Both the position numbers and the translations under genes were made by a program. From the NCBI RefSeq assembly GCF_026626745.1, contig NZ_JAPNJW010000001.1, forward strand, positions 716,311-780,310: DNA of 64,000 nt, read 5' to 3'. Positions 1 through 60,375 of the stretch are shown here, piece by piece. Within the stretch, counting starts at the first letter, position 1. Each line of letters starts with the position of its first letter. The notes under the pieces were generated by a model. It had not been told where the DNA came from and searched no databases. It saw only the letters and a program-made list of their open reading frames with translations. This stretch comes from Nannocystis sp. RBIL2 (lineage in GTDB: Bacteria > Myxococcota_A > Polyangia > Nannocystales > Nannocystaceae).

Positions 1-173
1 TCAGTCGCAGGTACATACAAACACGTTACATCGCGCGCGCGTCGGCGCGCCGGCCAGGATCGCTCGCGCGGGTGCGCCCGATTGCGACGATGTAAGGAGC
101 CCCATCGGACATGTCCGAATGAACATGTCCGAACAGTCTTCTCACCCGAAGACCCGGCCGCGGCGGCGCCGCT

Positions 174-3149
174 TCAGCGAGCGACGTGGGCCAGCAGCCA
201 GGCGTCGACCCGCGAGACGTCCTCGTCGGCGTGATCGCCGGCGTAGTCGGCCCGCGCCTCCGACGCCAACGTCAGCGCCCGCGGACGGTCGCGGCCCGCG
301 ACCGCGCGGGCGAGCGCGAACCGCAGTTCGCCCAGGTCGACCGGCTGCACGTCCTTGCGGGTGCGGATCGCCAGCGCCCGCTCGAGCAGCGGCCGGGCCT
401 CCTCGAGGCGCCCGAGCTCGACCAGCGCCACGCCGAGGCCGTGCAGCGGATACGCCACCTCGGGGTCGTCGGGGCCGAACAGCGCCTGGCCCCGAGCCAG
501 CGCCTCCTCGTAGATCGGCACCGCGCGGGCGTAGTCGTGCTGCAGGTGGTAGCTGTTGGCGAGGTTGTACAGGGCATCGACCAGCCGCCCCTCCTGCCCC
601 GACGCCCGCCGCAGCACCCCCGCCGCCGCCTCGAAGTCGCCGCTCGCGCGCGCGTAGTCGCCGGTGAACACCAGCGCGCTGCCGAGGTTCATCCGCGTCG
701 ACGCGATCTCGGGGTGGTCCGGCCCGAGCGTGCGCACGCGGATGTCGAGCGCCCGCTCGAGCGCGGCGATCGCCTGGTCGAAGCGACCGGCCCGCATCTC
801 GAGGACGGCGATGTTGTTGAGCACCGACGCGACGTCGGGGTGGTCGGGTCCGAGGCGATCCTCGGCCAGCGCCAGCGCGTCGCCGAAGTACCGGCGCGCC
901 GCCTCGTCGCGCCCGCGCTTGTCCTCGAGCGAGCCGAGCGCGTTGAAGGCCGCGATCAGCAGCAGCCGCGACGACGCCGGCGCCGCGCGCAGCACCTCGA
1001 CCGCGGCCAGCAGCGTCTGGCGCGCGCCCTCGTGCTCGCCGCGGGCCGTCCGCACGATGCCGAGCGAGATGTCCCTTCGCGCCTGTTCGATGGGCCCTGC
1101 CCCTACGCGCAGGTCGGTGGCCGCCGCCAGCTGCAGCATCCGCTCGCCCTCGGCGTGGCGTTGCTGCAGCCCGCCGAGCACCAGCCCGAGCTCGGCCATC
1201 GCCTGCCCGCGCATCGGGTCGACCGCGCCGGCCTCCGCCGCCGCGATCGCCCGCGTGTGCAGCTCGACCGCCTGCTCGAAGCGGCCCTGGTCGGCCGCGA
1301 TCTGCCCGAGGGTGATCAGCGCCCGCGCCTCGATCGCCCCCGCCCCGGTCGCGCGCCCCTCCTGCAGCGCGCGCTCGGCCAGGCCCTGCGCCGCCGCGTA
1401 CTTGGCCGCGTGCCGCTTGGCCACCGCGTGGGCCAGGATGCCCTCGAGCCGCGCGACCTCCTCGCGGCTGGCGAGCCCGCGCCCGGGGCCCTGCATCAGC
1501 TGCTCGGCGTCGGCGCAGGCCTTCAGGTCGGGCAGCCCCTCGACCGCGACCGCGGCGCGCTGCACCACCTCGCGGTCCGCCTCGGAGAACAGCGCCGCGG
1601 TCGCCTGCAGCTGCTCGAGGTGGCGATCGAGGCAGGCCATGCGGCGGTCGAGCAGCAGCGGCGACTGCTCGTGGTGGACCAGCGACGCCTCGCAGACCTC
1701 GCGGCGCATCGCCACCCACGTCGCCGCGTACTCGTCGAGGGCGGCCGTCGCGGTCTCGGCCGCGCGCGCCGCGTACGGCTGCCCGGTCTCGAGGAACGCC
1801 TGCCGCGCCCGCTCCTTGATGCCCTCGTCCCACACCCCGACGAGGTGGCGGTCCGCGCCCTCGCAGCCCGGCGGCTTGACCTGCGCCCACACGATCCCGC
1901 CGGTCACCGTCGCCGCCACGCCCGCCACCGCCAGCGCGCCGAAGATCGTGCGCCGCCGCCGTTCCGTCGGCGCCAGCGCGGCGAGCATCGCGTCCATCGA
2001 TTCGAACCGCTGGCTCGGCTCGACCGCCAGCGCGCGGAGGATCGCCCGCCGCACGTGCAGCGGCACCGACGTGCGCACCGGCGTGGCGTCGATCTTGCCG
2101 CTGAGCACGCTCGTCGTCAGCTGCACGTAATTCTTGGCGGGGAACGGGTGGGCCTTGAACAGCGCCTCGAACAGCGCCACCGCGAACGCGAACTGGTCCG
2201 CGCGGGCATCGACGCGCTGCCCCATGTGCTGCTCCGGCGCCATGTAGGCCGGCGTGCCGACCAGCGCGCCGGTCCGCGTCAATCGCATCGACGACAGCCC
2301 CGCGATCGCCGAGTCGAGCCCCGTCGCCGGCGCCTGCGAGGCCAGCGCGACCGCCTGCAGCTTGGCCGCCGCCGGGTCGGTGTCGGCCAGCGGCGCCGGG
2401 TGGTTGCCGCGGTCGGTGGTGGCGAACGGCGACAGGCTCGCCGACATCGACGCGCTCGGCGGCGTCGAGATGTTCTCGGACATGTCCCGAGGGACAGCCG
2501 TGAACTCGGGCCCCTCCGCGCCGCGGGCGATGCCGAAGTCGACCACGCGCACCCGGCCGTCGCGGCCGACCAGCACGTTATCGGGCTTGAAGTCGCGGTG
2601 GACGATCCCGGCCTTGTGCGCGGCCGCCAGCCCGCGGCCGGCGGCCACGAAGGTGTCGAGGATCTCCTGGCTGGTCCGCTTGCCGTCCTTGAGCCAGCGC
2701 GACAGGTTGTGCCCGTCGACCAGCTCCATCGTCAGGTACACCAGCTCGCCGATGCGGTTGGCGTCGTAGATGGCGACCACGTTCGGGTGCTGCAGCCTGG
2801 CCAGCGCCTGGGCCTCGCGCAGCAGTCGGCCGACGATCTCGTCGGCGCGGTGGCCGGGGCGGGCGTGCATGATCTTGAGCGCCACCCGGCGGTCGAGCCG
2901 CGGGTCGTAGGCGGTGTAGACCACGCCCATCGCCCCCGCGCCGATGCGGTCGAGCACCGTGTAGCGCTCGATCGCCGCCCCGCGCTCGAACTTGAGCGCC
3001 TGGACCTCGTCGATCGACGGCGACTCGACCAGCGTCTCGACCCCGGTCAGGTGCGACTGATCGAGGTCGGAATGGGCCCCGGCGGTGCTGCGCGCGCTCG
3101 GCGGGCCTTCCGCGAAAGGCCCCTCGCCCGTCCTCGCCGCCTCGCCCAC
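174..3149 (-). CDS. Ser/Thr protein kinase with C-terminal TPR-repeat domain
   Basis: 991-aa ORF. N-terminal Hanks kinase motifs (GAGAMGVVY, VALK, HRDFKPDNVLV, DFGIA, APE) are followed by a long run of TPR-like helical repeats. Confidence 0.85.
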   Translation of the reverse strand: MGEAARTGEGPFAEGPPSARSTAGAHSDLDQSHLTGVETLVESPSIDEVQALKFERGAAIERYTVLDRIGAGAMGVVYTAYDPRLDRRVALKIMHARPGHRADEIVGRLLREAQALARLQHPNVVAIYDANRIGELVYLTMELVDGHNLSRWLKDGKRTSQEILDTFVAAGRGLAAAHKAGIVHRDFKPDNVLVGRDGRVRVVDFGIARGAEGPEFTAVPRDMSENISTPPSASMSASLSPFATTDRGNHPAPLADTDPAAAKLQAVALASQAPATGLDSAIAGLSSMRLTRTGALVGTPAYMAPEQHMGQRVDARADQFAFAVALFEALFKAHPFPAKNYVQLTTSVLSGKIDATPVRTSVPLHVRRAILRALAVEPSQRFESMDAMLAALAPTERRRRTIFGALAVAGVAATVTGGIVWAQVKPPGCEGADRHLVGVWDEGIKERARQAFLETGQPYAARAAETATAALDEYAATWVAMRREVCEASLVHHEQSPLLLDRRMACLDRHLEQLQATAALFSEADREVVQRAAVAVEGLPDLKACADAEQLMQGPGRGLASREEVARLEGILAHAVAKRHAAKYAAAQGLAERALQEGRATGAGAIEARALITLGQIAADQGRFEQAVELHTRAIAAAEAGAVDPMRGQAMAELGLVLGGLQQRHAEGERMLQLAAATDLRVGAGPIEQARRDISLGIVRTARGEHEGARQTLLAAVEVLRAAPASSRLLLIAAFNALGSLEDKRGRDEAARRYFGDALALAEDRLGPDHPDVASVLNNIAVLEMRAGRFDQAIAALERALDIRVRTLGPDHPEIASTRMNLGSALVFTGDYARASGDFEAAAGVLRRASGQEGRLVDALYNLANSYHLQHDYARAVPIYEEALARGQALFGPDDPEVAYPLHGLGVALVELGRLEEARPLLERALAIRTRKDVQPVDLGELRFALARAVAGRDRPRALTLASEARADYAGDHADEDVSRVDAWLLAHVAR

Positions 3150-5825: not shown

Positions 5826-5832
5826 GCGCCTG

Positions 5833-5896
5833 CGCTTCCAGACATGTTCATCGGGACATGTCCCGATGTTCATCCTGCCCGCTGCCCGCGGCCCGC
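5833..5896. mobile_element. about 64-bp CATG-palindrome element inserted at the KS/CLF gene junction, flanked by 23-bp direct repeats (CGTCGGAGGCCCGGCATGAGCGC)
   Basis: Direct repeat copies lie at about 5810-5832 and 5896-5918. Each copy contains the ATGA stop/start overlap; the insert carries GACATGTTCATCGGGACATGTCCCGATGTTCATC. Confidence 0.6.
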
Positions 5897-5910: not shown

Positions 5911-6714
5911 ATGAGCGCGCTCGCCTTCGCCGTCCGCGGCCTCGGGTTCTGGACCCCCGGCTACCCCGACCTCGCCGCCTGGCGGGCCCGGCCCGACACC
6001 TGGCCCGAAGGACAGGCGCCTCCGACCGAGCCGGCCGCCCCGAAGGCCGAGCTGCTGCCACCGATGATGCGGCGGCGCACCAGCCTGCTCACCCGCATGG
6101 CCGCCGAGGTGGCCGCCCAGGCGCTGCAGGACGGCGGCGTCGACCGGGCCGCGGCCACCCTCGTGTACGGCTCCGTCTACGGCGAGATCCGCACCACCCT
6201 CGACCTCCTCGCCGCCCTGCTCGTCCCCGGCGAGCCGCTGTCGCCGACCAAGTTCCACAACAGCGTCCACAACACGGCGGCCGGCTACGTCTCGATCGCC
6301 ACCGGCAACCGGGCCGGCAACGCCGCCCTGTCAGCCGGCCTCTCGACCCTCGCCATGGGCCTCGTCGAGTGCGCCGCCCTCGTGGCCGCCGGCGAGGGCG
6401 ACGTGGTGCTCGTGCTCGCCGAGGAGCCGCTGCCCGAGCCGCTGGCCGCCGGCCGCCGCTGGGACCCGTTCGCCGCCGCCTTCGCCCTTTCGGCGCCTGT
6501 CCCCGGCGACATGCCCATGAGGACATGTCGCCTCGAACATGGCGCGAATGACATGCTCCCCGCGCCACGTCCGGTCCCGGCCGCCCTGGCCGCCAACCCG
6601 TGCGCCGCCGCGCTCGCGCTGGTCGAGGCGCTGGCCGCCGGCGCCCCGGCGCGGATCGCCCTCGAGCCGCACCTCGCGGTCGGCTGGCAGTGCGCGCTCG
6701 GAGCCGGGGCATGA
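5911..6714 (+). CDS. KS-like chain-length-factor-type protein (Ketoacyl-synt_2 family, lacks active-site Cys)
   Basis: About 267 aa starting MSALAFAVRGLGFWTP; carries a KS N-terminal-domain-like signature (FHNSVHNTAAGYVSIATG). Its TGA overlaps the next ATG. It contains an in-frame CATG-repeat insertion at about 6507-6561. Confidence 0.7.
   Translation: MSALAFAVRGLGFWTPGYPDLAAWRARPDTWPEGQAPPTEPAAPKAELLPPMMRRRTSLLTRMAAEVAAQALQDGGVDRAAATLVYGSVYGEIRTTLDLLAALLVPGEPLSPTKFHNSVHNTAAGYVSIATGNRAGNAALSAGLSTLAMGLVECAALVAAGEGDVVLVLAEEPLPEPLAAGRRWDPFAAAFALSAPVPGDMPMRTCRLEHGANDMLPAPRPVPAALAANPCAAALALVEALAAGAPARIALEPHLAVGWQCALGAGA
6507..6561 (+). repeat. 4 tandem 14-bp CATG-core units (CGACATGCCCATGAG / GACATGTCGCCTCG / AACATGGCGCGAAT / GACATGCTCC) lying in frame inside the CLF-like CDS
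   Basis: Read directly from the sequence; they encode DMPMRTCRLEHGANDMLP within the protein. Confidence 0.8.
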
Positions 6715-7879: not shown

Positions 7880-7886
7880 CCCGGCC

Positions 7887-10482: not shown

Positions 10483-10543
10483 CACCTGCTCTCTCGGCCA
10501 TGTCCTGGGACTCCTGTCCTCGAGGCCACCCGGTCCGCCTCGC

Positions 10544-12366: not shown

Positions 12367-12418
12367 CCACCCCGTCGACGCCGACTCTGCCTGTCTCTTC
12401 GCGCAGGCCCTTCAAGAC

Positions 12419-13150
12419 ATGTCCTTGACGCCAGACGACATCGCCGCCAACCTCGCCGCCGTCCGCGCCCGGATCGCCGCCGCCGTCGCCCGACGCGGCC
12501 CCGGTCCCGTGCCCACCCTCATCGGCGTCAGCAAGAAGCAGCCCGCCGAGGCCGTGATCACCGCCTGTCGGGCCGGCCTCGGCGACCTCGGCGAGAACTA
12601 CGCCCAGGAGCTGGTCGCCAAGGCCGAGCTCGTCGCCGCGGCCGTCACCCCGCCGCGCTGGCACTTCATCGGCCCGCTGCAGACCAACAAGGTGCGCAAG
12701 GTCGTCGCCGTCGGCGCCCTCGTCCACACCGTCGATCGCCCGGGGCTCGTCGACGAGCTCGCCCGCGAGGTCGAGCGCCTGCGCGCGGGCCGAGGCGCCA
12801 CCACCCCGCTCGAGCTGCTCGTCGAGGTCAACGTCGGCGACGAGGCGCAGAAGGCTGGCGTCTCCCCGACGGACCTGCCGGCGCTGCTCGACCAGATCGC
12901 CGCCCGTCCCCAGCTGCGCTGCGTCGGCCTCATGGCGATCCCCCCCGAGGGCGAGCCGGAGCAGACTCGCCCGTACTTCGCCCGCCTGCGCGAGCTGCTG
13001 CGCCGTGAAGCCGCGATCGCGCGCCCCGGCGTCGACCTGGTCCACCTCTCCATGGGCATGAGCGCCGACTTCGAGGTCGCGATCGAAGAGGGCGCGACCA
13101 TGGTCCGCGTCGGCACCGCCATCTTCGGCGCCCGTCCGCCGCGCGCCTGA
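12419..13150 (+). CDS. yggS: YggS-family pyridoxal-phosphate-binding protein (PLP homeostasis)
   Basis: 243 aa with the alanine-racemase N-terminal fold signature (LIGVSKKQP...GHLQTNKVR...). Confidence 0.85.
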   Translation: MSLTPDDIAANLAAVRARIAAAVARRGPGPVPTLIGVSKKQPAEAVITACRAGLGDLGENYAQELVAKAELVAAAVTPPRWHFIGPLQTNKVRKVVAVGALVHTVDRPGLVDELAREVERLRAGRGATTPLELLVEVNVGDEAQKAGVSPTDLPALLDQIAARPQLRCVGLMAIPPEGEPEQTRPYFARLRELLRREAAIARPGVDLVHLSMGMSADFEVAIEEGATMVRVGTAIFGARPPRA

Positions 13151-14638: not shown

Positions 14639-14689
14639 GCCCCGCGTCCGCGATCTGTCCCGTGGGACAGGCCCGAGCACCCGGGCCCA

Positions 14690-14800: not shown

Positions 14801-14923
14801 GACGGCCGAGCCCGCTCGCCTGTCTCCCGGGCCAGCCGCCGGCGACCTGTCCTTGCGGACATCCTGTCGGCGCTCGCCTCCCCTGTCGCCGCCGACCTCC
14901 CTCCTGCCCCCGCGAGGCCTGCC

Positions 14924-15217
14924 ATGACCGCGCGCACCTTCGTCTGTCGCTGCGAGGACGTCACTCTGACGGAGATCGAGCGGGCCATCGCCGCCGGTCT
15001 GTCCGACGTCGAGGAGATCAAGCGCTACACCGGCCTCGGCACCGGGCCGTGCCAGGGCAAGGAGTGCCTGTCGGCGCTGGGGCGGCTGCTCGTCGCCCGC
15101 AACCTGATCGCGCCCGCCGCCCTGCGCCCGTTCACCGCCCGCCCGCCGGTCGAGCCGGTGACCTTCGGCGCCCTCGCGGCCGGCGCCACCGACCACCCGG
15201 AGGATCCGTCGCCATGA
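14924..15217 (+). CDS. (2Fe-2S)-binding BFD-like small subunit (HcnA / OoxA-small-subunit-like)
   Basis: 97 aa with a CRCE...C...GPCQGKEC cysteine pattern; its TGA overlaps the next ATG. Confidence 0.7.
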   Translation: MTARTFVCRCEDVTLTEIERAIAAGLSDVEEIKRYTGLGTGPCQGKECLSALGRLLVARNLIAPAALRPFTARPPVEPVTFGALAAGATDHPEDPSP

Positions 15218-16812: not shown

Positions 16813-17628
16813 ATGGAAGTGACTTTCTGGGGCACCCGGGGCAGCATTCCAGTTTCCGGGCCGCGGTACGCAGAGTTCGGCGGCAACACGCCCTGCCTTC
16901 AGATTTCGCTCGAGAGCACGACGGACACCGTCATCCTCGATTCGGGCTCGGGCATCCGTGAGCTCGGCATCCGCCTCGTGCAGACTCGAGCCGCGCACTC
17001 GCGGGTCATTCACCTGTTTCTGACCCACGCTCACTGGGATCACATCCAGGGCTTCCCGTTCTTCCCGCCGGCCTTCATGCCGGACTTCCGGCTCCACATC
17101 TACTGCACGAAGGACGCGCGAGCGGTCCTCGACCGGCAGATGTCGACGCCGTTCTTCCCGGTCGGCCTCGACGTGATGGGCTCCACCAAGCTCTTCCATC
17201 ACCTGCTGCCGCAGGAGGTCACGACCATCGCCGAGGCGACGCTGCGGCACATCCCGCTGCCGCACCCGCAGGAGAGCACCGCGTTCCGCGTCGACGAGCG
17301 CGGCAAGTCGGTCGTGTTCGCCACCGACACCGAGCACGCGCCCGACCACATCAACGAGACCCTGCGTGACCTGGCCGAAGGGGCAGACGTCCTGATCTAC
17401 GACGCCCAGTACACCTCCGAGGAGTACAGCGCCGGCAAGCAGGGCTGGGGTCACAGCACCTTCGCCGAGGCCGTCAAGCTGGCCCGCGCCGCCCGCGTCG
17501 GCAAGCTCGTCCTCTACAGCCACGACCCGGCCCACGACGACGAGATGCTGCGCAAGATCGAGGCGGCCGCCCAGGAGGCCTACCCCGGCACCGTCGCCGC
17601 CCGCGACGGCATGAAGCTGAAGCTCTGA
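16813..17628 (+). CDS. MBL-fold metallo-hydrolase
   Basis: 271 aa with LTHAHWDHIQG metal-binding motif (HxHxDH). Confidence 0.8.
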   Translation: MEVTFWGTRGSIPVSGPRYAEFGGNTPCLQISLESTTDTVILDSGSGIRELGIRLVQTRAAHSRVIHLFLTHAHWDHIQGFPFFPPAFMPDFRLHIYCTKDARAVLDRQMSTPFFPVGLDVMGSTKLFHHLLPQEVTTIAEATLRHIPLPHPQESTAFRVDERGKSVVFATDTEHAPDHINETLRDLAEGADVLIYDAQYTSEEYSAGKQGWGHSTFAEAVKLARAARVGKLVLYSHDPAHDDEMLRKIEAAAQEAYPGTVAARDGMKLKL

Positions 17629-17695
17629 GCCGACTGGCCGCCAGGACATGTCCTCGCGGCCAGCTCGGCGGTGCCGTCCGTCCGGCTGAGCTCGC

Positions 17696-18470: not shown

Positions 18471-19778
18471 TCACGCGACCAGTCGACCGACCGCGAGCGG
18501 CCCGTCGGCGTTCTCGACCTCGATTTGCGTCGCCCGGCCGAGCAGCGCGTCGTCTCCGGCCGCCAGCACCGTCAAGCCGTTGCCGGCCCGACCGACCAGC
18601 AGCCCCGTCCGCCGGTGTCGCGTCCGGTGCACGACCACCGGCAGGGTGCGCCCGACCTGCGCCGCCGCGAACGCCCGCTGCTTCGCCGCCGACAGCGCCC
18701 GCAACGCCGCCCCGCGCTGCTGCTTGACCGCCGCATCGACCTGTCCCGAGAGACAGGCAGCATCGGTGCCCGCGCGCGGTGAGTAGGCGAACACGTGCAG
18801 GTACGCCAGCGGCAGCGCGGCCAGCAGCGCGTGCGTGGCCGCGAACGCCTCGTCCGACTCCCCGGGGAAGCCGACGATCACGTCGGTGCCGACGCCGATC
18901 CCCGGCACCGCCCCGGCCAGGCGAGGCACCAGCGCCTGCAGGTCGGCGGCGGTGTGCGCCCGACGCATGCGCCGCAGCGTGTCGTCGTCGCCGCTCTGCA
19001 CCGGCAAGTGGAGGTACGGACACAGCCGCGGATCCGTCGCCAGCAGCGTCACCAGGTGATCGTCGACTTCGTGCGGATCGACCGAGCCGAGGCGCAGCCG
19101 CGCCGGCCCGAGCTGCGGCAGCAGCTCCGCGACCAGCGACGACAACGTGCTGCGCGGCCGCAGGTCGCGGCCATAGATCCCGAGGTGGACCCCGGTGAGC
19201 ACCACCTCCGGCACCCCCGCCGCGACCAGCTCGTCCAGCTGCGCCCGCACCTCCGCCGGCGGCACGCTCACGCTGCGCCCGCGCACCTGCGGCACGATGC
19301 AGAAGCTGCAGCGGTAGTCGCAGCCGTCCTGGATCTTCAGGTACGCCCGGCTGCGCCGCGGGTCGGCGGCCGGGCGCAACCGGGCCGCGCGGACGCGCCG
19401 CAGCAGGTCGACCGGGGCCACGTGGATCTCCGGGACATGTTCCTCCGAACATGTCTCTCCGAGCACCTCGAACAGCCGCTCCTTCTCGCGGTTGCCGACC
19501 ACCAGCGTCACCCCGGGCAGCGCGGCCGCCTCCGCGGGGGCGGCCGTCGCCCAGCAGCCGGTGACGACCACCTTCGCCCCGGCGCGCGCGGCCCGGCGCA
19601 CGTGCTGGCGCGCGTCGGCGTCGGCCTCGTGGGTGATCGTGCAGGTGTTGACGATCACGACCTCGGGCGCGGCCTCGGCGTCGACCACGGTGTGGCCGGC
19701 CGCGCGGGCCATCTGCTCGAGGGCGTCGGACTCGAACTGGTTGAGGCGACAGCCGAGCGTGCTGAACGCGACGCGCAT
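18471..19778 (-). CDS. mtaB: radical SAM methylthiotransferase, MtaB (YqeV)-like
   Basis: N-terminal MTTase domain (MRVAFSTLGCRLNQFESD), CxxxCxxC radical SAM motif (DGCDYRCSFCIVP) and a C-terminal TRAM-like region. Its ATG overlaps the kinase stop (ATGA). Confidence 0.85.
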   Translation of the reverse strand: MRVAFSTLGCRLNQFESDALEQMARAAGHTVVDAEAAPEVVIVNTCTITHEADADARQHVRRAARAGAKVVVTGCWATAAPAEAAALPGVTLVVGNREKERLFEVLGETCSEEHVPEIHVAPVDLLRRVRAARLRPAADPRRSRAYLKIQDGCDYRCSFCIVPQVRGRSVSVPPAEVRAQLDELVAAGVPEVVLTGVHLGIYGRDLRPRSTLSSLVAELLPQLGPARLRLGSVDPHEVDDHLVTLLATDPRLCPYLHLPVQSGDDDTLRRMRRAHTAADLQALVPRLAGAVPGIGVGTDVIVGFPGESDEAFAATHALLAALPLAYLHVFAYSPRAGTDAACLSGQVDAAVKQQRGAALRALSAAKQRAFAAAQVGRTLPVVVHRTRHRRTGLLVGRAGNGLTVLAAGDDALLGRATQIEVENADGPLAVGRLVA

Positions 19779-24470: not shown

Positions 24471-24477
24471 ACTTTAC

Positions 24478-24564
24478 GGCATGTCCGTGTGGACATGCCC
24501 TTTCATGCAGGGCCGTTCGGACATGTCCGAACGGCCCTGTCGCTTGCTCCGTCGACAAGCGACA
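24478..24564. terminator. cluster of three GC-rich palindromes (22, 32 and 25 nt) downstream of the acyl-CoA dehydrogenase
   Basis: GGCATGTCC-GTGT-GGACATGCC; a perfect 32-nt palindrome CAGGGCCGTTCGGACATGTCCGAACGGCCCTG; and GTCGCTTG-N9-CAAGCGAC. Confidence 0.6.
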
Positions 24565-24649
24565 CGAGCAGCCTGACGACCGCAATTCTCGAGCGCTCAT
24601 GGGCTCCCCACGCTGGGTCGCCTGCGCCAGGTCGGGCCCGAAAGCAGCA

Positions 24650-24677
24650 TGACCGCCAGGACATGTCCTGGCGGTCA
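24650..24677. terminator. perfect 28-nt palindrome TGACCGCCAGGACATGTCCTGGCGGTCA next to the convergent binding-protein gene end
   Basis: Read directly from the sequence; a candidate bidirectional terminator hairpin with a CATG core. Confidence 0.6.
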
Positions 24678-24702
24678 CGCCTCTCGCGCGGGTGAGCGCG
24701 GC

Positions 24703-26271
24703 TCAGGGCGCGGGCGCCCAGGTGCCGGTGGCGCTGGGGCAGGCCGGCGCGTACACGGCGGTCTTCGTCCACCCGCCCTTGTCGTCGAGCGTGTAGGCGG
24801 CGATCGGGCTGCACACCTCGCCGCTGGCGTCGAAGTCGAGCGGGCCGGTGATGCCGACGAGGTCGACGGTCTTGCTCGACTGGAAGGCGGTGAGCGCCGC
24901 GGGCACGAACATCTTGGGGCCGACGCCGAAGTCGACCGGCGTGCCGGCCTTGTCGGACAGCTTCTTGAACGCGTCGGCGACGCGCAGGCCGACCACGATG
25001 TCGCCCGACTTCACGGCGGCCATGCCGAACAGCGACGCCATCGTCGCGTCGTAGGCGAGCGCGCCCTCGGGCGCGAGGTTCGCCTCACCGAGGCGCGTGC
25101 GCAGCTTGGCCAGCTGCGGCGTCTCGAGGTCGGGCGTGACTGCGACGACGATGCCCGCGAGGTCGGGGTCCTCGAGCGCCGCGACCGCCGGCATCGCCCG
25201 CTTGGTCACGTAGATCTTCTGCGGCAGCGGAGCGCCGGTGGTCTTGTAGTGCTTGATGATCTCGGCGACCTCGGACCGCCCGAGCAGGATCAGCATCGGC
25301 GGCTCGGCGAAGGTCTTGAGCGCCGTGTCGAGCTTGGCCTTGGCGCCCTTGGTGGCGTCGTCGAGCCCGCGGTACGAGGCGATGAACTGGCTGCCCGGGA
25401 CCTGCGGGATCTGGCTCGGCCCGCTCGTCTCCTCGGTCGCCACCGCGTTGTAAAGGCTGAGCCCGTACGCGTCCTCCGACAGCAGCAGGATCGCGTTGGC
25501 CGTCGGGTCGCCGGCGAAGTCGGCCCCGATGCGCTCGCCCAGCGCCGGGCCCTGGAACTTCGCGCCGGCCATCGCCTGGAACACCAGGCCGCTGCCGGTC
25601 GAGGTGTCGAGCTCGCTCATGTCGGCCGTGATCATCGGCCCCATCGTGAACGCGTTGACGCCCTGGGCGAACGTCACTTGATCGACCACCGCAGTGAACT
25701 CGACGTCGTCGGCCGGGCCGATGAGCACCGGGATCGTCAGCGTGTCGCCGAGGTGGCGCGCGGCCGACGTCGCCGCCGCGACCTCGCTCTGGGTGTCGCA
25801 CACCACCAGCGCGATCTTGTCGCCGTTCGGCAGCTCGCCGCTGGCGTTGAACTCCTCGACCGCCGCCAGCACGCCCTTCTCCATCTCGAGCCCGAGGTCG
25901 GCGTCGGCGCCGGTCTTCGGCAGCATCACGCCGATGAACGCGACGTCGTCGCTGATCTCGCCGCCGGGGTAGATGGGTGCGCCGCACTCGTCGGACTCGG
26001 TCGAGGCGCACTCGCGCGGCGCACTCGAGGTCGCGCAGATGTACGACTCGCCGAGGCCCGCGCACTGCGAGTTGGCGTCACAGCCCTTCTCGCGGATCTT
26101 GCAGACGTTGGCCGCGCAGTACATCGGCTTGTTGTCGTCGAAGAACGCCGCGCAGTCGGCGTCCTCGTAGCACTCGGTGAAGTCGAGGGTCGCCGAGCAC
26201 GCGCCCGCGATCACCCCGAGAGCGCCGCACACAGAGAACCGGACAAGCAGATGCGAGAAGACTGACGACAT
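24703..26271 (-). CDS. periplasmic substrate-binding lipoprotein (Peripla_BP_6 / LivK-like) with N-terminal Cys-rich segment
   Basis: 522 aa with signal plus lipobox (LGVIAGACS), a Cys-rich stretch, then a type I periplasmic binding-protein fold. Confidence 0.7.
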   Translation of the reverse strand: MSSVFSHLLVRFSVCGALGVIAGACSATLDFTECYEDADCAAFFDDNKPMYCAANVCKIREKGCDANSQCAGLGESYICATSSAPRECASTESDECGAPIYPGGEISDDVAFIGVMLPKTGADADLGLEMEKGVLAAVEEFNASGELPNGDKIALVVCDTQSEVAAATSAARHLGDTLTIPVLIGPADDVEFTAVVDQVTFAQGVNAFTMGPMITADMSELDTSTGSGLVFQAMAGAKFQGPALGERIGADFAGDPTANAILLLSEDAYGLSLYNAVATEETSGPSQIPQVPGSQFIASYRGLDDATKGAKAKLDTALKTFAEPPMLILLGRSEVAEIIKHYKTTGAPLPQKIYVTKRAMPAVAALEDPDLAGIVVAVTPDLETPQLAKLRTRLGEANLAPEGALAYDATMASLFGMAAVKSGDIVVGLRVADAFKKLSDKAGTPVDFGVGPKMFVPAALTAFQSSKTVDLVGITGPLDFDASGEVCSPIAAYTLDDKGGWTKTAVYAPACPSATGTWAPAP

Positions 26272-35633: not shown

Positions 35634-37202
<1,569 letters not shown>

Positions 37203-37277: not shown

Positions 37278-37499
37278 CGACCTGTCTCTCCGGACATCTC
37301 GCGCGCGCTCGGGCCGCGGCTGTGTTCAACCTGTCCCTTTGAACATATCGCGCTCCGACCGCGCCATACTCGACCTGTCTCTCCGGACATCTCGACCGCG
37401 CAGATCCACCCGTCATCGTTCAGGTGGATCACCTGCCCCTTCGGACATCCTCGAGGCGCGGCGCTCACCGGCTCGCCGCCTGTCCCTTCGGACATCCCA
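37278..37499. repeat. array of 5 spaced copies of a 24-bp unit CGACCTGTCyCTyCGGACATCyCG (units 1 and 3 identical), periodicity 44-59 bp
   Basis: Read directly from the sequence. Degenerate further copies occur at about 37570 and 37695, the latter overlapping the start of the downstream lipoprotein gene. Confidence 0.85.
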
Positions 37500-37657: not shown

Positions 37658-38287
37658 ATGACCACGCCAGCTCCGACCTCGGCCGCCGCGCGCTCGACCT
37701 GTCTCTTGCGACATGTCGCCATCCTCTCCGCGCTCGCCGCCTGCGACCTCGTGCCGCGAGACGGCGACGACCCCGGCACCACCACCGCCGCCTCGACCAC
37801 CGGCGCTGCTGCCTGCCCGCTCAACGACGCCTGGGAGCCCAACGACGAACCCGACGATCCGACCGACGTCGCCTGGAGCGGCGTCAGCGAGTGGTCCGCC
37901 TACCACGAGGTCACCGACGCCTACCTCTGCCCCGGCGAGGACGACTGGTACCGCTTCGACGTCGCCAGCCTCGGTTACGGCGTCCACTACCTCTACGTGC
38001 GCGCTCTGGTGAGGGACGCCGGCCTGTGCGGGGCCGCGTGCGGGGAGCCCGTGCTCGCGCCCGGCCCCGACAACGCCATGACCATCGAGGTCTACCGCGC
38101 CGATACGCACGAGCCCTTGACCGCGCAGACGGCCGACGGTGGCGTGCTCGCGCTCGGTGGTTACGGCGACGACTACGCCGGCACTCTGCTGGTCCGCGTC
38201 CACAGCGACACCGCGACCGCCGAGTACCCCTATCGCCTGAGCGTCGAGCTCCGCAACTACGAAGGCGAGGACGAGTGTGAGTGCTGA
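37658..38287 (+). CDS. hypothetical lipoprotein
   Basis: Signal peptide and lipobox (LLRHVAILSALAACDL); Asp/Glu-rich, ending CEC. Confidence 0.5.
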   Translation: MTTPAPTSAAARSTCLLRHVAILSALAACDLVPRDGDDPGTTTAASTTGAAACPLNDAWEPNDEPDDPTDVAWSGVSEWSAYHEVTDAYLCPGEDDWYRFDVASLGYGVHYLYVRALVRDAGLCGAACGEPVLAPGPDNAMTIEVYRADTHEPLTAQTADGGVLALGGYGDDYAGTLLVRVHSDTATAEYPYRLSVELRNYEGEDECEC

Positions 38288-39296: not shown

Positions 39297-39378
39297 TTTC
39301 AGAGCATGTCTCGAAGCACATGCCCCATCGAACATGCCCTGAAAGACATGCCCCATCGGGCATGCCCGTGAGCGCCGC
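39297..39378. repeat. 5 tandem 13-16-bp CATG-core units (AGAGCATGTCTCGA / AGCACATGCCCCATCG / AACATGCCCTGAA / AGACATGCCCCATCG / GGCATGCCCGTGAG) filling a convergent intergenic region
   Basis: Read directly from the sequence; the array occupies the entire space between two convergent stop codons. Confidence 0.85.
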
Positions 39379-45449: not shown

Positions 45450-45524
45450 TGTCTTCACGGACAGGCGCTCGAGAGCATGTTCTCACGGACATGTCTGGAC
45501 GATCATGTCCCCGCGGACATGTCC
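45450..45524. repeat. TGTC-N6-GACA element plus 4 tandem CATG-core units (GAGAGCATGTTCTCACG / GACATGTCTGGAC / GATCATGTCCCCGCG / GACATGTCCTCAG) in a convergent intergenic region
   Basis: Read directly from the sequence between the ABC ATPase stop and the mqnD stop. Confidence 0.85.
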
Positions 45525-46343
45525 TCAGCGCGGCAACAGCCCCGCCGCCTGCCCGCGCGCGCGCAGCTCGGCCAGCGCCGCCGCCCCTTCGGCTCCCATG
45601 TCGCGCGAGAACTCGTTGACGTACAGCGCGATGTGCTGCCGGCAAACCTCGTCGCTCAGCTCCTGCGAGTGCGCCTTCACGAACGGCCACGCCGCGGCCG
45701 GGTCGGCCTCCGCCGCCGCGATCGACCGGGCGATCCCCTCCTCCACCGCCCGCACCTGCCCGGCGGGCAGCGAGCGGTGGGCCGCGATCACCCCGAGCGG
45801 CAGCGGCAGCCCCGTCGCCGCCTCCCACACCTCGCCGAGGTCCGCCACCTGCTGCAGCCCGTGATCGCGGAACACGAACCGCGCCTCGTGGATCACCAGC
45901 CCCGCGTCGACCTCCCCCGCGGCCACCGCCGGCATGATGCGATCGAAGCGCATCGGCACCACGGTCACCGACGCCGGCGCGAAGCAGCGCAGCAGCAGGT
46001 GCGCCGTCGTGTACGCGCCCGGGATGGCGATCTTCCGCCCCGCCAGCGCCACCAGCTCCGTCGCCTCGCGCGCGACCACCAGCGGCCCGCAGCCGCGGCC
46101 CAGCGCCGCGCCTGTCCGCAAGACCAGGTAATCGCGCTCGACCCAGAACAGCCCGTGCGCGCTCAGCTTCGTTACCGGCAGCGGCGCCTCGCCGGCCAGC
46201 GCGCGCTCGTTGAGCGCCTCGATGTCGGCCAGCCACGGCAGCGGCCGCAGCCCCGGCACGAACTCCGGCACGCGCACCAGCGCGTCGAACATCCACGTGT
46301 CGTTCGGACACGGCGAGAACCCGAGAGGCAGCGGCTCGCTCAT
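45525..46343 (-). CDS. mqnD: 1,4-dihydroxy-6-naphthoate synthase (futalosine pathway)
   Basis: 272 aa with N-terminal LGFSPCPNDTWMFDAL, characteristic of the MqnA/MqnD fold. Its ATG overlaps the upstream gene stop. Confidence 0.7.
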   Translation of the reverse strand: MSEPLPLGFSPCPNDTWMFDALVRVPEFVPGLRPLPWLADIEALNERALAGEAPLPVTKLSAHGLFWVERDYLVLRTGAALGRGCGPLVVAREATELVALAGRKIAIPGAYTTAHLLLRCFAPASVTVVPMRFDRIMPAVAAGEVDAGLVIHEARFVFRDHGLQQVADLGEVWEAATGLPLPLGVIAAHRSLPAGQVRAVEEGIARSIAAAEADPAAAWPFVKAHSQELSDEVCRQHIALYVNEFSRDMGAEGAAALAELRARGQAAGLLPR

Positions 46344-50826: not shown

Positions 50827-50836
50827 CCCTTCGAAC

Positions 50837-52318
50837 ATGTCCAAGAGCGCACCCGTCAAGAAGACCACCAGCAAGATCTGGGACAAGGTCAAGGACGTCG
50901 TCGACCCCGACCGCGCCCTCCAGGCCACCGTCGCCGCCGCCATCGAGGGCGTCGCCGTCCGCAACGTCCTCGGCATGGCGCCCGAGACGTGGAAGCCGGG
51001 CAAGCCGCTCAAGCTGCTGCTGGCCGGCTACGTCGGCACGCGCAACACCGGCGCCGACGTCCGCGTCGAGGAGATGATCCGCCAGCTGCGCCACGTCGTC
51101 GGCGACGACCAGCTCGAGCTGACGATCATGACCGTCGATCCCAAGTTGACGCGCGGCTACTTCCGCGCCGTCCACCAGATCGAGCTGCCGGCGGTGTTCC
51201 CCAAGTTCATCGCCACCGAGTGCCCGAAGCACCACGGCGTCATCGCTTGCGAGGGCTCGATGTTCAAGTCGAAGTTCTCGAGCGCGCTGACCTGCTTCAT
51301 GGCCGGCGCCCTCGGGCTCGCCAACGCCGAGAACAAGGTCAGCGTCGGCTACGGCGCCGAGGCCGGCAACATGACCCCGGCGCTCCGCGACTTCGTGCGC
51401 GACGCCTGCAAGAAGTCGCTCGTCATCTGCCGCAACGAGCCCTCGCGCAAGGTCCTCGGCGAGCTCGGCATCCGCACCACCTCTGGGGCCGACACCGCCT
51501 GGACCTTCGACCCCGCTCCGCTGTCCAGGGGCGCCCAGCTGCTGCGCGACGCCGGCTGGGACGGCCGCCAGAAGGTCCTCGTCGTCTGCCCGATCAACCC
51601 GTTCTGGTGGCCGGTCAAGCCCGACCTGCTCAAGTACGCCGCCTACAAGCTCGGCGGGCAGTACAAGCACGAGCACTACAGCGCCTTCTACTTCCACCAC
51701 CACAGCGAAGCGTCCGACAAGAAGTACAACGCGTACATCCAGGCCCTGGCCGACGGTGTCAACGCGTTCGCCGCGGAGCGCGAGTTCTTCACCATCCTCG
51801 TCGGCATGGAGCAGCTCGACCGCCACGCCTGCGAGGACCTGCAGCCGCGCCTCGATCGCGGCGGCGCGCTGTTCGTCAGCGACGAGCACGACATGTACGA
51901 CCTCGTCAGCGTGCTGCGTAACTGCAGCATGATGATTAGTTCGCGCTTCCACGCGATCGTCACCTCGATGCCCGGCCTCGTGCCCTCCGCCGGCGTCACC
52001 ATGGACGAGCGGATCCGCAACCTCATGAACGATCGCGGCCACCCGGACATGTTCTTCGAGGTCGACGAGGAGGGCCTCGGCGACAAGCTGCTGCACACCC
52101 TGCGCCGCCTGTGGCGCGACGCCGAGGGCATCAGCGCCGACATCGCCCGCGCCGTCCCGGCCCAGCTGAAGCTCATGGGTCAGATGGGCATCGACTTCAT
52201 GGACGAGGTCGTCCGCGTCTACCCCGAGTTCCCGCGCCGCGACCTCCCGCGCACCTGGGAAGCCCACCTGCCGCCGCTGCCCGCCAACGTGCAGCGCCTG
52301 CTGGAGCGCCACGCATGA
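50837..52318 (+). CDS. polysaccharide pyruvyl transferase family protein
   Basis: 493 aa with PS_pyruv_trans-type motifs (GYVGTRNTGAD ... ISSRFHAIV). Confidence 0.7.
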   Translation: MSKSAPVKKTTSKIWDKVKDVVDPDRALQATVAAAIEGVAVRNVLGMAPETWKPGKPLKLLLAGYVGTRNTGADVRVEEMIRQLRHVVGDDQLELTIMTVDPKLTRGYFRAVHQIELPAVFPKFIATECPKHHGVIACEGSMFKSKFSSALTCFMAGALGLANAENKVSVGYGAEAGNMTPALRDFVRDACKKSLVICRNEPSRKVLGELGIRTTSGADTAWTFDPAPLSRGAQLLRDAGWDGRQKVLVVCPINPFWWPVKPDLLKYAAYKLGGQYKHEHYSAFYFHHHSEASDKKYNAYIQALADGVNAFAAEREFFTILVGMEQLDRHACEDLQPRLDRGGALFVSDEHDMYDLVSVLRNCSMMISSRFHAIVTSMPGLVPSAGVTMDERIRNLMNDRGHPDMFFEVDEEGLGDKLLHTLRRLWRDAEGISADIARAVPAQLKLMGQMGIDFMDEVVRVYPEFPRRDLPRTWEAHLPPLPANVQRLLERHA

Positions 52319-59871: not shown

Positions 59872-60312
59872 ATGAGCTGGATCCGGATCGGTGACACCAC
59901 CTGGACCTTTCGCAACGCCTCGCTCGAGCTCTACCATTGCGAGGGCCCCGAGGCCGACTGGAACCTCGCGCTGGACCACGCCGGCGCGACGCTGTGGCTG
60001 GCCGGCACCGTCGTCCCCGGGCCGCGCTCGCCCGAGGCGCTGATCGGCGCCGAGGTCTCGGTCGACCTGCGCTCGCTCGACGAGGTCGCCGGCGCCCTGC
60101 TCGGCCGCGCCGTCACCCTCTTCCCGCACGGCCAGGACGTGAATGCGCTCGGCTTTCGCCTGGCCGCCTCGCCCGGCGGAGTGCGCCTGGCCGCCTCTGC
60201 CCGCTGCGACTGGGACCGCTACCTCGGCACCTTCGACCACGGCCAGCCGGTCGACCTCGAGCTCGACATCGACGCCGCCGTCGTCGCGCTGCACCCCGGA
60301 AACATGCCCTGA
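59872..60312 (+). CDS. hypothetical protein
   Basis: 146-aa ORF with good third-position GC; no recognisable domain. Confidence 0.3.
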   Translation: MSWIRIGDTTWTFRNASLELYHCEGPEADWNLALDHAGATLWLAGTVVPGPRSPEALIGAEVSVDLRSLDEVAGALLGRAVTLFPHGQDVNALGFRLAASPGGVRLAASARCDWDRYLGTFDHGQPVDLELDIDAAVVALHPGNMP

Positions 60313-60375
60313 GGGGCATGCTCGATCGCGCAGGTCTTGTTCGACATGTCCTCTCGGACATGTGCTTTGCGACAG
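60301..60375. repeat. CATG-core units and palindromes (CATGCCC-TGAG-GGGCATG; TTCGACATGTCCTCTCGGACATGTGC)
   Basis: Read directly from the sequence. Confidence 0.8.

What the first reader, a model, noticed from the sequence alone, without database searches (positions are those of the whole stretch)
24478..24677. Dispersed family of GACA-half-site palindromic repeats (GGACATGTCC / CATG-core), at least 14 loci in 64 kb
In a roughly 70% GC sequence the AT-containing core ACATGT is conspicuous, and it recurs in a structured way. Loci: 105-134 (TCGGACATGTCCGAATGAACATGTCCGAAC), 2475-2497, about 5838-5877, 6507-6561, 12392-12428, 17635-17660, 19428-19463, 24478-24564 (including a perfect 32-nt palindrome), 24650-24677 (perfect 28-nt palindrome), 39297-39378, 45450-45524 and 60301-60375. 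A 24-bp CTGTC...GGACAT variant occurs at 14846-14870 and 37278-37718. The units are 13-16 bp, often in tandem runs of 2-5, and usually form longer palindromes with their flanks. They concentrate at convergent gene ends and between operon partners, but also occur inside CDSs. The common building block is an inverted pair of GACA half-sites: zero spacer in GGACA|TGTCC and a 6-8 nt spacer in CTGTC-N-GGACA. This looks like a REP/MITE-like element family, or a regulon-scale protein-binding motif, or both. I cannot name an element family it matches.
Basis: seen in the sequence. Interest (0 to 1): 0.75.

Follow-up and report, generated by a model that had tools for sequence, protein, structure and literature searches.

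The report
Tiled 14-bp palindromes at gene ends
Nannocystis genomes carry what extrapolates to thousands of copies of a 14-base palindrome (TGTCC-N4-GGACA), laid end to end in short arrays just after stop codons; this genus-specific, conserved signal sits where REP elements or terminators sit in other bacteria, but it is built unlike any described family.

Summary
GGACATGTCC occurs 7 times (0.03 expected), and CATG-to-CATG spacing peaks sharply at 14, 28 and 42 bp. The repeat is a gap-free tiling of a 14-bp palindrome, TGTCC-N4-GGACA. Arrays of 2-6 units run at about 5 per kb in convergent spacers, 1.2 in same-direction spacers, 0.1 in divergent (promoter) spacers and 0.04 in coding sequence. 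They start about 15 nt after stop codons. Across Nannocystis species the CATG seam is 93% conserved, more than coding DNA, while the 4-nt spacers are only 55% conserved. The family is present in all Nannocystis genomes sampled and absent from Enhygromyxa, Paraliomyxa, other bacteria and viral contigs. It is not a promoter operator set, not a MITE (no inverted ends or target duplications) and not a canonical REP (no GTAG/CGTC tag, only half-sites conserved). My best reading is a protein-recognised palindrome/hairpin element marking transcript ends, a functional analogue of REP/BIME. A DNA-uptake-sequence-like role is a live rival, because tiles are about 46-fold enriched inside genes. I rate it a new variant of a known kind.

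The parts
105..132 (.). 2-unit array (CATG at 110, 124), 40-70 nt downstream of the stop of the kinase gene 174-3149(-)
   Evidence: 12-bp stem, z -5.0. Cores are conserved in N. pusilla and N. exedens while the spacers differ.
2474..2496 (.). Single core GGACATGTCC plus an overlapping tile TGTCCCGAGGGACA, inside the kinase CDS
   Evidence: Identical in four Nannocystis species.
5838..5867 (.). 2-unit array in an 85-bp spacer between two operon genes. The spacer is bracketed by a duplicated 23-nt RBS/ATGA junction (5808-5830 and 5896-5918).
   Evidence: The empty site (genes overlapping by ATGA) is seen in N. radixulma L123.
6505..6560 (.). 4-unit array inside the annotated Ketoacyl-synt_2 gene (5911-6714)
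   Evidence: The 14-bp register of the RACATG cores is conserved in four species and the spacers are scrambled.
10496..10505 (.). Single core GGCCATGTCC, 14 nt after the stop of 9301-10482(+), in a convergent spacer
12415..12424 (.). Single core AGACATGTCC overlapping the ATG at 12419, a candidate start codon of the downstream gene
14656..14669 (.). Tile TGTCCCGTGGGACA, 18 nt after the stop of 13352-14638(+), within an operon-junction insert
14848..14861 (.).
17634..17663 (.). Single core within a 30-nt near-perfect palindrome, starting 6 nt after the stop of 16813-17628(+) (core 16 nt after the stop)
   Evidence: (z -4.2). Duplicated in N. punicea.
19431..19458 (.). 2-unit array inside the radical-SAM gene 18471-19778(-), in the linker between the UPF0004 and Radical_SAM domains
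   Evidence: It lies on a 12-nt in-frame insertion relative to L002 and L005. N. punicea has 3 units here.
24475..24539 (.). Array starting 5 nt after the acyl-CoA dehydrogenase stop: units at CATG 24480, 24494, (degenerate 24508), 24522. It includes the tile 24482-24495 and the perfect 32-nt palindrome 24508-24539.
   Evidence: (z -8.5). The long palindrome is conserved in N. punicea but the leading units are not.
24643..24677 (.). 2-unit array with the perfect 28-nt palindrome 24650-24677, ending 25 nt beyond the stop of the convergent gene 24703-26214(-)
   Evidence: (z -5.5). Conserved in N. punicea.
37283..37494 (+). Cluster of same-orientation tiles (37283-37296, 37376-37389, 37481-37494, plus degenerate copies at about 37331 and 37432) in a 548-bp spacer. 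This is a sub-family of about 25-bp direct repeats.
   Evidence: Its relation to the main family rests on the shared tile only.
37709..37718 (.). Single core CGACATGTCG preceded by CCTGTC, overlapping a candidate start codon (ATG 37713)
39300..39369 (.). 5-unit array filling the 82-bp convergent spacer between 38277-39296(+) and 39379-40653(-)
   Evidence: z -3.9 on the + strand, -5.2 on the - strand
45450..45526 (.). Tile 45450-45463 (starting 11 nt after the stop) followed by a 4-unit array (CATG 45476-45518) that abuts the stop of the convergent gene 45525-46343(-)
   Evidence: (z -3.3)
60298..60367 (.). 4- to 5-unit array overlapping the stop codon of 59872-60312(+)
   Evidence: (z -2.4)
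50833..50842 (.). Single core GAACATGTCC overlapping the start codon of 50837-52318(+). Membership is uncertain (Met-Ser start).

Best explanation
This is a Nannocystis-specific family of short interspersed palindromes. Its module is the 14-bp palindrome TGTCC-N4-GGACA, with GGACA half-sites and a free, A/T-rich 4-nt centre. Modules are laid end to end without gaps, so each seam reads GGACA|TGTCC = GGRCATGYCC. Arrays of 2-6 tiles sit directly after stop codons, one per gene end.

I propose that the module is read by a sequence-specific, probably dimeric, protein, and that the arrays act in either direction as transcript-end elements. In the transcript or in unwound DNA, neighbouring units pair into 9-12-bp stems whose tetraloop is the spacer. 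Together with the bound protein, these stems would stop or insulate transcription and protect the 3' end of the upstream message. That is the job attributed to REP/BIME elements in E. coli, and here it would replace conventional hairpin-plus-U terminators.

Shown: the motif, its exact geometry, its location bias, its folding potential, its cross-species conservation and its taxonomic range. Inferred: that a protein reads it, and that the effect is on transcription or mRNA ends.
For: Geometry: the two half-site spacings are exact. TGTCC-N4-GGACA occurs 71 times and GGACA-N0-TGTCC 44 times, against 0-2 at nearly all other spacings. CATG pairs at 14 bp number 143, against 3 and 4 at 13 and 15 bp.

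Location: there are 44 arrays in 50 convergent spacers (8.6 kb), 34 in 161 same-direction spacers (29 kb), 2 in 49 divergent spacers (19 kb) and 11 in 296 kb of CDS. Tiles show the same ranking. Arrays hug the upstream stop, at a median relative position of 0.12 (P = 3e-8), and in convergent spacers they hug the nearest stop (P = 0.006). Long convergent spacers carry one array at each end.

Structure: RNA folds pair adjacent units, with z from -2.4 to -8.6. Neighbour units compensate each other's asymmetries in 22% of cases against a null of 12.6 +/- 1.7%. Fully complementary neighbour pairs number 15 against 3.2 expected.

Selection: with arrays defined in one species and scored in others, CATG is 0.93 identical, core flanks 0.72, spacers 0.55, other intergenic DNA 0.61 and CDS 0.89. 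Only 2.5% of array columns are gapped, against 22% of other intergenic columns. Codon positions 1/2/3 score 0.95/0.96/0.88. The register is kept in four species even inside a gene.

Sequence-specific reading: the half-sites are invariant while the spacers are free. There is no G.U-over-A.C bias on the sense strand (55 against 52). Tiles are about 46-fold enriched in CDS over synonymous shuffles (24 against 0.5).

Terminator niche: conventional hairpin+T sites are at chance level in 60 kb of the window (20 against about 16). The orthologous spacer in relatives that lack the motif holds an A-tract/hairpin/T-tract terminator.

REP precedent: REPs act as partial terminators and mRNA stabilisers in 3'UTRs (bioRxiv 10.64898/2026.03.23.713779).
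Against: There are no expression, 3'-end or binding data, and no candidate protein was identified. Covariation beyond the 5-bp half-site is weak (pair 1: 50 of 87 Watson-Crick against 38 expected, P = 0.04; other pairs not significant), so the hairpin may be incidental to a duplex binding site. About 29% of tiles lie in CDS, and some arrays sit inside genes or within operons, where an efficient terminator would be harmful. Proximity to stop codons could partly reflect avoidance of the downstream promoter. Only one orthologous spacer shows the replacement of a canonical terminator, and the terminator scans in the outgroup were not significantly above shuffles either.
Confidence: 0.42

Rival explanations
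1. A DNA-uptake or other self-recognition sequence, like DUS/USS. The 14-bp palindrome would be favoured genome-wide by a biased process such as uptake by a pilus receptor followed by recombination, or a repair or recombination signal. It would accumulate wherever it is tolerated, mostly in terminator-like positions and in permissive parts of genes. Its hairpins would be a by-product, or co-opted as terminators.
For: The motif is genus-specific and dense: about 2.5 tiles and 3.7 strong cores per 10 kb in Nannocystis genomes, and none in sister genera. There is strong enrichment inside CDS beyond codon usage (tiles 24 against 0.5; cores at >=14.5 bits 20 against 5.8). Intragenic copies lie in variable linkers. 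The motif is conserved across species while its surroundings diverge. DUS/USS show the same pattern: about half lie in terminators, inverted pairs form stem-loops, and the rest sit in permissive gene regions (bioRxiv 10.1101/2025.10.24.684340).
Against: To my knowledge, known uptake sequences are not palindromic and are not tiled in strict arrays of 4-6. Density in CDS is about 40 times lower than in convergent spacers, a much stronger skew than I recall for DUS/USS. Avoidance of divergent spacers and anchoring to stop codons are not predicted by uptake alone. Competence of Nannocystis is not documented in anything I found.
Confidence: 0.2
2. A selfish REP-type mobile element spread by a transposase such as a RAYT-like Y1 enzyme that recognises the hairpin, with arrays as BIME-like products of repeated insertion.
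For: There is presence/absence and copy-number polymorphism between close species. One array lies in a spacer bracketed by a 23-nt duplicated junction, with an empty site in N. radixulma. The niche and the regular spacing resemble BIMEs (PMC2817692). REPs inside genes are known (PMC3733652).
Against: No whole-unit consensus exists; only the half-sites are conserved. Units in one array are no more alike than random units (0.467 against 0.484), and spacer identity is at background. There is no GTAG or CGTC tag. Flanking direct repeats are not a general feature. Arrays are held in register by purifying selection across species, which is unlike decaying insertions. The junction duplications contain variable inserts in which CATG units differ between species, so the arrays were probably not what inserted. 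No transposase was sought or found.
Confidence: 0.13
3. Purely structural, protein-independent bidirectional intrinsic terminators that happen to share sequence through common descent or mutational bias.
For: The folds are stable on both strands. The arrays sit at stop codons, canonical terminators are lacking, and an outgroup has a terminator at the same site.
Against: A structural role does not need one specific sequence, yet CATG and the GGACA half-sites are conserved better than coding DNA, and loop length is fixed at exactly 4. There is no U-tract and no G.U tolerance signal on the sense strand. Isolated tiles are only 5-bp stems, and 24 of them lie in CDS.
Confidence: 0.15
4. Operator sites of a transcription factor controlling a large regulon.
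For: The 14-bp site is palindromic with 5-bp half-sites about one helical turn apart and a free A/T-rich centre, which is typical operator geometry. A few cores overlap start codons (12415, 37709, 50833). The 37.3-kb cluster lies upstream of a gene.
Against: Only 2 of 96 arrays and 2 of 87 tiles lie in the divergent spacers, which total about 19 kb. Arrays sit next to the upstream stop, not the downstream start (median about 15 nt against about 170 nt). The neighbouring genes are functionally unrelated. One site per 3-4 kb is far too many for a regulon.
Confidence: 0.05

Closest known systems
REP / BIME elements of Enterobacteria, Pseudomonas, Xanthomonas and Stenotrophomonas (PMC2817692, PMC3733652, PMC3333891)
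   Same: Both are high-copy, lineage-specific short palindromes. Both lie between convergent genes or between operon genes and avoid promoters. Both form regularly spaced clusters, vary in copy number between relatives and occasionally occur inside genes. REPs are proposed or shown to act in termination and mRNA stabilisation.
   Different: The unit here is 14 bp, against 20-40 bp for REPs. Only the 5-bp half-sites and two exact spacings are conserved, with no family-wide consensus and no GTAG or CGTC end tag. The units are symmetric, so 'alternating orientation' has no meaning. The tiling is gap-free. About 29% of tiles are intragenic. No RAYT link has been tested.
DNA uptake sequences, DUS of Neisseriaceae and USS of Pasteurellaceae (bioRxiv 10.1101/2025.10.24.684340)
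   Same: Both are genus- or family-specific 9-14-mers at a fraction of a copy to one copy per kb. A large share lies in terminator positions as inverted, hairpin-forming arrangements. The remainder is enriched inside genes in permissive regions. The motif is conserved while its context diverges.
   Different: The motif here is itself a palindrome and is tiled in strict 14-bp arrays of up to 6-8 units. It shows a much stronger extragenic skew. No competence system or receptor is known for Nannocystis.
MetJ 'metbox' operators (own knowledge: tandem 8-bp palindromes AGACGTCT, 2-5 copies, bound cooperatively by ribbon-helix-helix dimers)
   Same: Both are gap-free tandem tilings of a short palindrome with a strict period and a variable copy number of 2-5. 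That is the architecture expected for cooperative binding of dimers.
   Different: Metboxes are promoter operators of a small regulon. The Nannocystis arrays lie at gene 3' ends, extrapolate to thousands of copies and have a 14-bp period.
HIP1, the highly iterated palindrome GCGATCGC of cyanobacteria (own knowledge)
   Same: Both are short palindromes vastly over-represented in one lineage, in both coding and non-coding DNA, with unknown function.
   Different: HIP1 is not arrayed at a fixed period and is not concentrated at gene 3' ends.
Bidirectional intrinsic terminators
   Same: Both are palindromic hairpins between convergent genes and usable from both strands. An outgroup has such a terminator at the orthologous position.
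   Different: There are no flanking A and T tracts, the stem sequence is specific and conserved, and the elements occur in arrays.

Membership tests
REP/BIME | Palindromic unit of about 20-40 bp with a family-wide consensus (PMC3733652, PMC2817692) | tested here: not met
   The unit is 14 bp. Only GGR-CATG-YCC is conserved and the spacer positions are near random. Units in one array are no more similar than random units.
REP/BIME | GTAG (or CGTC) tetranucleotide tag at one end | tested here: not met
   The logo of 236 units and 32 printed arrays show no such tag, and the units are symmetric.
REP/BIME | High copy number (more than 100 per genome) | tested here: inconclusive
   307 units in 97 runs were counted in about 358 kb from six genomes. 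Density of 2.3-2.8 tiles per 10 kb extrapolates to thousands per 11-13-Mb genome.
REP/BIME | Extragenic, at 3' ends of transcription units or between operon genes | tested here: met
   Arrays per kb: convergent 5.1, same-direction 1.2, divergent 0.1, CDS 0.04. They are anchored to stop codons. Caveat: 25 of 87 tiles are in CDS.
REP/BIME | Clusters of regularly spaced units in alternating orientation | tested here: inconclusive
   Regular spacing is met (strict 14 bp). Orientation cannot be defined for a symmetric unit. Neighbouring units do behave as inverted repeats of each other more often than chance.
REP/BIME | Association with a RAYT (Y1/HUH) transposase gene | not tested
   No whole-genome annotation was accessible. 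None of the 10 flanking genes scanned is a transposase.
MITE | Terminal inverted repeats around a conserved body, flanked by target-site duplications | tested here: not met
   There is no conserved body. The longest flanking direct repeat averages 7.4 nt against 6.9 in controls, and the single 23-nt case is a duplicated gene junction.
DUS/USS uptake sequences | Lineage-specific short motif at high genome-wide density, including inside genes | tested here: met
   The motif is present in all Nannocystis genomes sampled and absent in sister genera. Tiles in CDS number 24 against 0.5 expected.
DUS/USS uptake sequences | Frequent inverted-pair arrangement in terminators | tested here: inconclusive
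   The analogous arrangement is present, but the arrays are longer than pairs and the terminator function is unproven.
DUS/USS uptake sequences | Sequence-biased DNA uptake through a dedicated receptor in a competent organism | not testable with these tools
   This needs transformation or uptake assays.
Intrinsic (Rho-independent) terminator | GC-rich hairpin followed by a U-tract | tested here: not met
   Hairpins are present, but no T-run follows the arrays. None of the array loci is reported by the hairpin+T scan.
Transcription-factor operator regulon | Sites located in promoter or 5' regions of the regulated genes | tested here: not met
   2 arrays and 2 tiles lie in 49 divergent spacers totalling about 19 kb. 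Arrays lie next to the upstream stop, not the downstream start.
Rfam RNA families | Match to a curated covariance model | tested here: not met
   No hit at gathering score in the window. Permissive searches of two array regions gave only noise.

The most novel reading that the evidence does not exclude
The 14-bp palindrome is the recognition code of a dedicated, still unidentified Nannocystis protein. The tiled arrays then form a genus-wide, protein-dependent system. This could be a bidirectional transcription-end or insulator system that has displaced intrinsic terminators. Alternatively it could be the first uptake or self-recognition sequence outside the Neisseriaceae and Pasteurellaceae, in a predatory myxobacterium that needs to tell its own DNA from prey DNA. 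Either would be a new genome-wide signalling system rather than another REP family.
Probability: 0.25. Interest if true: 0.85.

Novelty: new variant of a known kind. Interest (0 to 1): 0.62.

Why it matters
How high-GC bacteria that lack obvious hairpin-plus-U terminators end their transcripts is still poorly understood, and the function of REP-like repeats is still debated even in E. coli. This family is unusually tractable. The module is tiny (two 5-bp half-sites at two exact spacings). It extrapolates to thousands of copies, is clearly under purifying selection, is confined to one culturable genus and is absent from sister genera. That makes the reader protein findable, either by pull-down or by phylogenetic profiling. 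Its effect on termination, mRNA stability or DNA uptake can be tested with simple reporter constructs. For annotation, the arrays are a reliable marker of gene 3' ends in Nannocystis genomes. They also explain odd 'insertions' in some proteins and some spurious small ORFs.

Tried and rejected
(1) Exact-protein look-ups of two window genes found nothing, so the organism was identified through homologues instead.

(2) Rfam gave nothing at gathering score and only noise at a permissive threshold.

(3) Literature searches for the 10-mer returned only eukaryotic p53 response elements, a coincidence of sequence (RRRCATGYYY). Nothing was found on Nannocystis or myxobacterial REPs.

(4) I rejected recent slippage or minisatellite origin. 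Direct-repeat similarity of units within arrays is at background, and all non-Nannocystis hits to the 4xCATG pattern are ordinary perfect microsatellites (0 of 77 genome loci and 0 of 79 viral loci pass the family criteria, against 27 of 34 Nannocystis loci).

(5) I tested for transposon-style target duplication and found it is not general.

(6) I tested for RNA-specific selection through a G.U against A.C asymmetry on the sense strand and found none.

(7) I tested the pairing phase inside arrays. The outer pairs are best matched only in 5-unit arrays, and there is no clear phase in 4-unit arrays.

(8) Covariation of stem extensions beyond the half-site is weak.

(9) Comparing canonical-terminator counts between Nannocystis and the outgroup gave no significant excess over shuffles in either, so only individual examples are informative.

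Full report
OBSERVATION. GGACATGTCC occurs 7 times in the 64-kb window, where 0.03 is expected, and ACATGT occurs 22 times against 3.6. CATG-to-CATG distances of 14, 28 and 42 bp occur 17, 9 and 11 times against a background of about 1.2. The focal spacer (24471-24702) lies between two convergent genes, an acyl-CoA dehydrogenase and a periplasmic binding protein. It holds one array at each end, including a perfect 32-nt palindrome at 24508-24539 and a perfect 28-nt palindrome at 24650-24677.

ORGANISM AND RANGE. The flanking proteins are 96-98% identical to those of Nannocystis punicea and N. pusilla. I scanned one genome per species (185,579 species) for four CATG at 14-bp spacing. Every other hit is an ordinary perfect 7- or 14-bp microsatellite. 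Using family criteria (GGRCATGYCC cores and non-identical units), 27 of 34 Nannocystis loci pass, against 0 of 77 other genome loci and 0 of 79 viral contigs. In loci chosen through genes rather than through the motif, all five Nannocystis genomes carry about 3.7 strong cores per 10 kb, and four of the five carry 2.3-2.8 tiles per 10 kb (the N. punicea locus has 0.5). A relative at 80% protein identity has traces. Enhygromyxa salina, Paraliomyxa miuraensis and a relative at 74% identity have none.

ANATOMY. The logo from 236 units is nnGGRCATGYCCnn. It is symmetric, the 4-nt spacer is A/T-rich but otherwise free, and there is no orientation relative to transcription. Counting half-sites directly is more revealing. 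TGTCC-Nk-GGACA occurs 71 times at k=4 and 0-2 times at nearly every other k. GGACA-Nk-TGTCC occurs 44 times at k=0 and 29 times at k=14. So the arrays are a gap-free tiling of the 14-bp palindrome TGTCC-N4-GGACA, and CATG is the seam between tiles. Most dispersed copies in other loci are half-decayed unit pairs. In the pooled sample, arrays have 2-6 units and rarely 8. The long perfect palindromes of the focal region are atypical. Apart from their two orthologues in N. punicea, only two other long ones (20 and 22 nt) were found in about 358 kb.

LOCATION. I called genes with a codon-usage model and pooled the window, one N. punicea locus (L001) and the 34 scan loci. Arrays fall 44 in 50 convergent spacers (8.6 kb), 34 in 161 same-direction spacers (29 kb), 2 in 49 divergent spacers (19 kb) and 11 in 296 kb of coding sequence. 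The bias holds when the 4-unit arrays that brought the loci in are left out. Tiles rank the same way, at 3.7, 0.9, 0.1 and 0.09 per kb. Arrays begin a median of about 15 nt after the upstream stop but about 170 nt before the next start. This anchoring is significant (P = 3e-8; P = 0.006 for the nearest stop in convergent spacers). Long convergent spacers carry one array per gene end, as in the focal region. This rules out a promoter-operator regulon.

STRUCTURE. Folded as RNA, the arrays pair adjacent units into 9-12-bp stems with the spacer as a tetraloop, on both strands, with z from -2.4 to -8.6. Where a unit is not self-symmetric, its neighbour carries the fully compensating change in 22% of cases, against 12.6 +/- 1.7% for random unit pairs. 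Fully complementary neighbour pairs number 15 against 3.2 expected. Other signals are weak or absent. There is no excess of G.U over A.C on the sense strand (55 against 52). Covariation beyond the 5-bp half-site is weak. No U-tract follows the arrays. Units within an array are no more alike as direct repeats than random units (0.467 against 0.484), so the arrays are not recent slippage products.

EVOLUTION. I defined arrays in one species and scored the others in alignments of the window, N. pusilla, N. exedens, N. radixulma and N. punicea. The CATG seam is 0.93 identical, core flanks 0.72, spacers 0.55, other intergenic DNA 0.61 (0.78 where ungapped) and CDS 0.89. Array columns are gapped in 2.5% of comparisons, against 22% for other intergenic DNA. 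Codon positions 1, 2 and 3 are 0.95, 0.96 and 0.88 identical. So the seam and the register are under purifying selection as strong as on protein-coding positions, while the spacers change faster than any other class.

Two intragenic arrays show this clearly. A 4-unit array inside an annotated Ketoacyl-synt_2 gene keeps its RACATG cores in register in four species while the spacers are scrambled. A 2- to 3-unit array in a radical-SAM gene sits on a 12-nt in-frame insertion found only in Nannocystis. Turnover also occurs. The focal spacer has 3-4 leading units in the window but 1-2 in N. punicea. A relative at 80% identity has different units there. Relatives at 74% identity have a classical A-tract/hairpin/T-tract terminator instead. 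Conventional hairpin+T terminators are at chance level in 60 kb of the window. The same scan was not significant in the outgroup either, so this comparison rests on individual examples.

MOBILITY. One array (5843) lies in a spacer bracketed by a duplicated 23-nt junction containing the RBS and an ATGA stop/start overlap. N. radixulma has the empty, overlapping site, and the insert is 85, 118 and 175 bp in three species with different CATG content. A second operon junction (14639-14923) behaves the same way. However, flanking direct repeats are not a general property of arrays. There is also no conserved element body and no GTAG or CGTC tag. The family therefore fails the definitions of MITEs and of canonical REPs.

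CODING SEQUENCE. Strong cores are 2.3-3.4-fold enriched in CDS over synonymous-codon shuffles, while CATG itself is about 10% depleted. Tiles are about 46-fold enriched (24 against 0.5 +/- 0.8), and 25 of 87 tiles lie in CDS. So the palindrome is favoured genome-wide, not merely tolerated between genes. This is the pattern known for DNA uptake sequences.

INTERPRETATION. The invariant half-sites, the two exact spacings, the free A/T-rich centre, the symmetry and the enrichment in coding sequence together point to a sequence-specific reader, probably a dimeric protein. The anchoring to stop codons, the one-array-per-gene-end rule, the avoidance of promoters, the folding potential with neighbour compensation, and the replacement of a canonical terminator in the orthologous spacer together point to a role at transcript ends.

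My best explanation (confidence about 0.42) is a REP/BIME-like transcript-end element in which a protein-recognised palindrome or hairpin array terminates or insulates transcription in both directions and protects the upstream 3' end. REPs have just been shown to do both in E. coli. Rivals are a DUS/USS-like uptake or self-recognition sequence parked in terminators (0.20), protein-independent structural terminators (0.15), a selfish RAYT-type mobile repeat (0.13) and a transcription-factor regulon (0.05). None of the functional steps is shown; they are inferences from sequence statistics.

NOVELTY. No paper, Rfam model or described repeat family matches. The family occupies the REP/BIME niche, but a defining-feature test fails on unit size, consensus and end tag. 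It resembles uptake sequences in density and in intragenic enrichment, but it is palindromic and tiled. I rate it a new variant of a known kind (lineage-specific interspersed extragenic palindromes), with an unusual and very clean architecture.

Noticed in passing
window 5808-5830 and 5896-5918; L123 11179-11182 (empty site); L121 and L119 11183-11357: An ancestral ATGA stop/start overlap between two aryl-polyene-type synthase genes has been pulled apart by an insert of 85-175 bp. The insert is bracketed by two copies of the 23-nt RBS/ATGA junction, so both the upstream stop and the downstream RBS and start are preserved. Insert content differs between species.
   Followed up: yes
window 14639-14923 (junction copies at about 14624-14636 and 14920-14932); L001 2043-2046 and L002 3053-3060 (empty); L119 20385-20882: A second operon junction shows the same pattern: a duplicated GCCATGACCGCGC junction around a 168-498-bp insert. 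In N. pusilla the insert contains tandem repeats of about 63 bp, and N. exedens has an annotated 88-aa ORF there that is probably spurious.
   Followed up: partly
window 37203-37750: A 548-bp spacer carries 4-7 same-orientation copies of a roughly 25-bp repeat (CGACCTGTCTCTCCGGACATCTCG). It is built on the tile but with non-CATG outer halves. Unlike the main family, it behaves as a direct repeat and lies upstream of a gene. Its function is unknown.
   Followed up: partly
pooled Nannocystis CDS (272 genes, 291 kb): The tetranucleotide CATG is about 10% depleted in coding sequence relative to synonymous-codon shuffles (811 against 900 +/- 14), even though full cores and tiles are enriched. This might reflect avoidance of stray half-signals, or a CATG-specific enzyme.
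   Followed up: no
arrays in alignments of the window with L119, L121, L123 and L001: The 4-nt spacers inside arrays are only 55% identical between species, which is far more divergent than third codon positions (88%) or other ungapped intergenic DNA (78%). They may be hypermutable hairpin loops, or units may be turning over within a fixed register.
   Followed up: partly
window 24539-24563: An unrelated hairpin, GTCGCTTG-N9-CAAGCGAC, lies directly after the 32-nt palindrome. It is not conserved in N. punicea.
   Followed up: no
L001 4750-4860, compared with window 17634-17663: In N. punicea the 30-nt palindrome after the lactamase-fold gene, together with about 30 nt of its flank, is tandemly duplicated with a period of about 65 bp.
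   Followed up: partly
window 4644-9086: The gene cluster has aryl-polyene-type content (KS, Ketoacyl-synt_2, ApeP-like dehydratase, KR, flavin halogenase-like), judging from Pfam hits on the orthologous annotated loci.
   Followed up: no
window 36476-36655 and 58909-59024: There are in-gene tandem repeats: a 66-bp period inside 35634-37202, and a 15/30/45-bp period at the start of 58894-59799. They are unrelated to the palindrome family.
   Followed up: no
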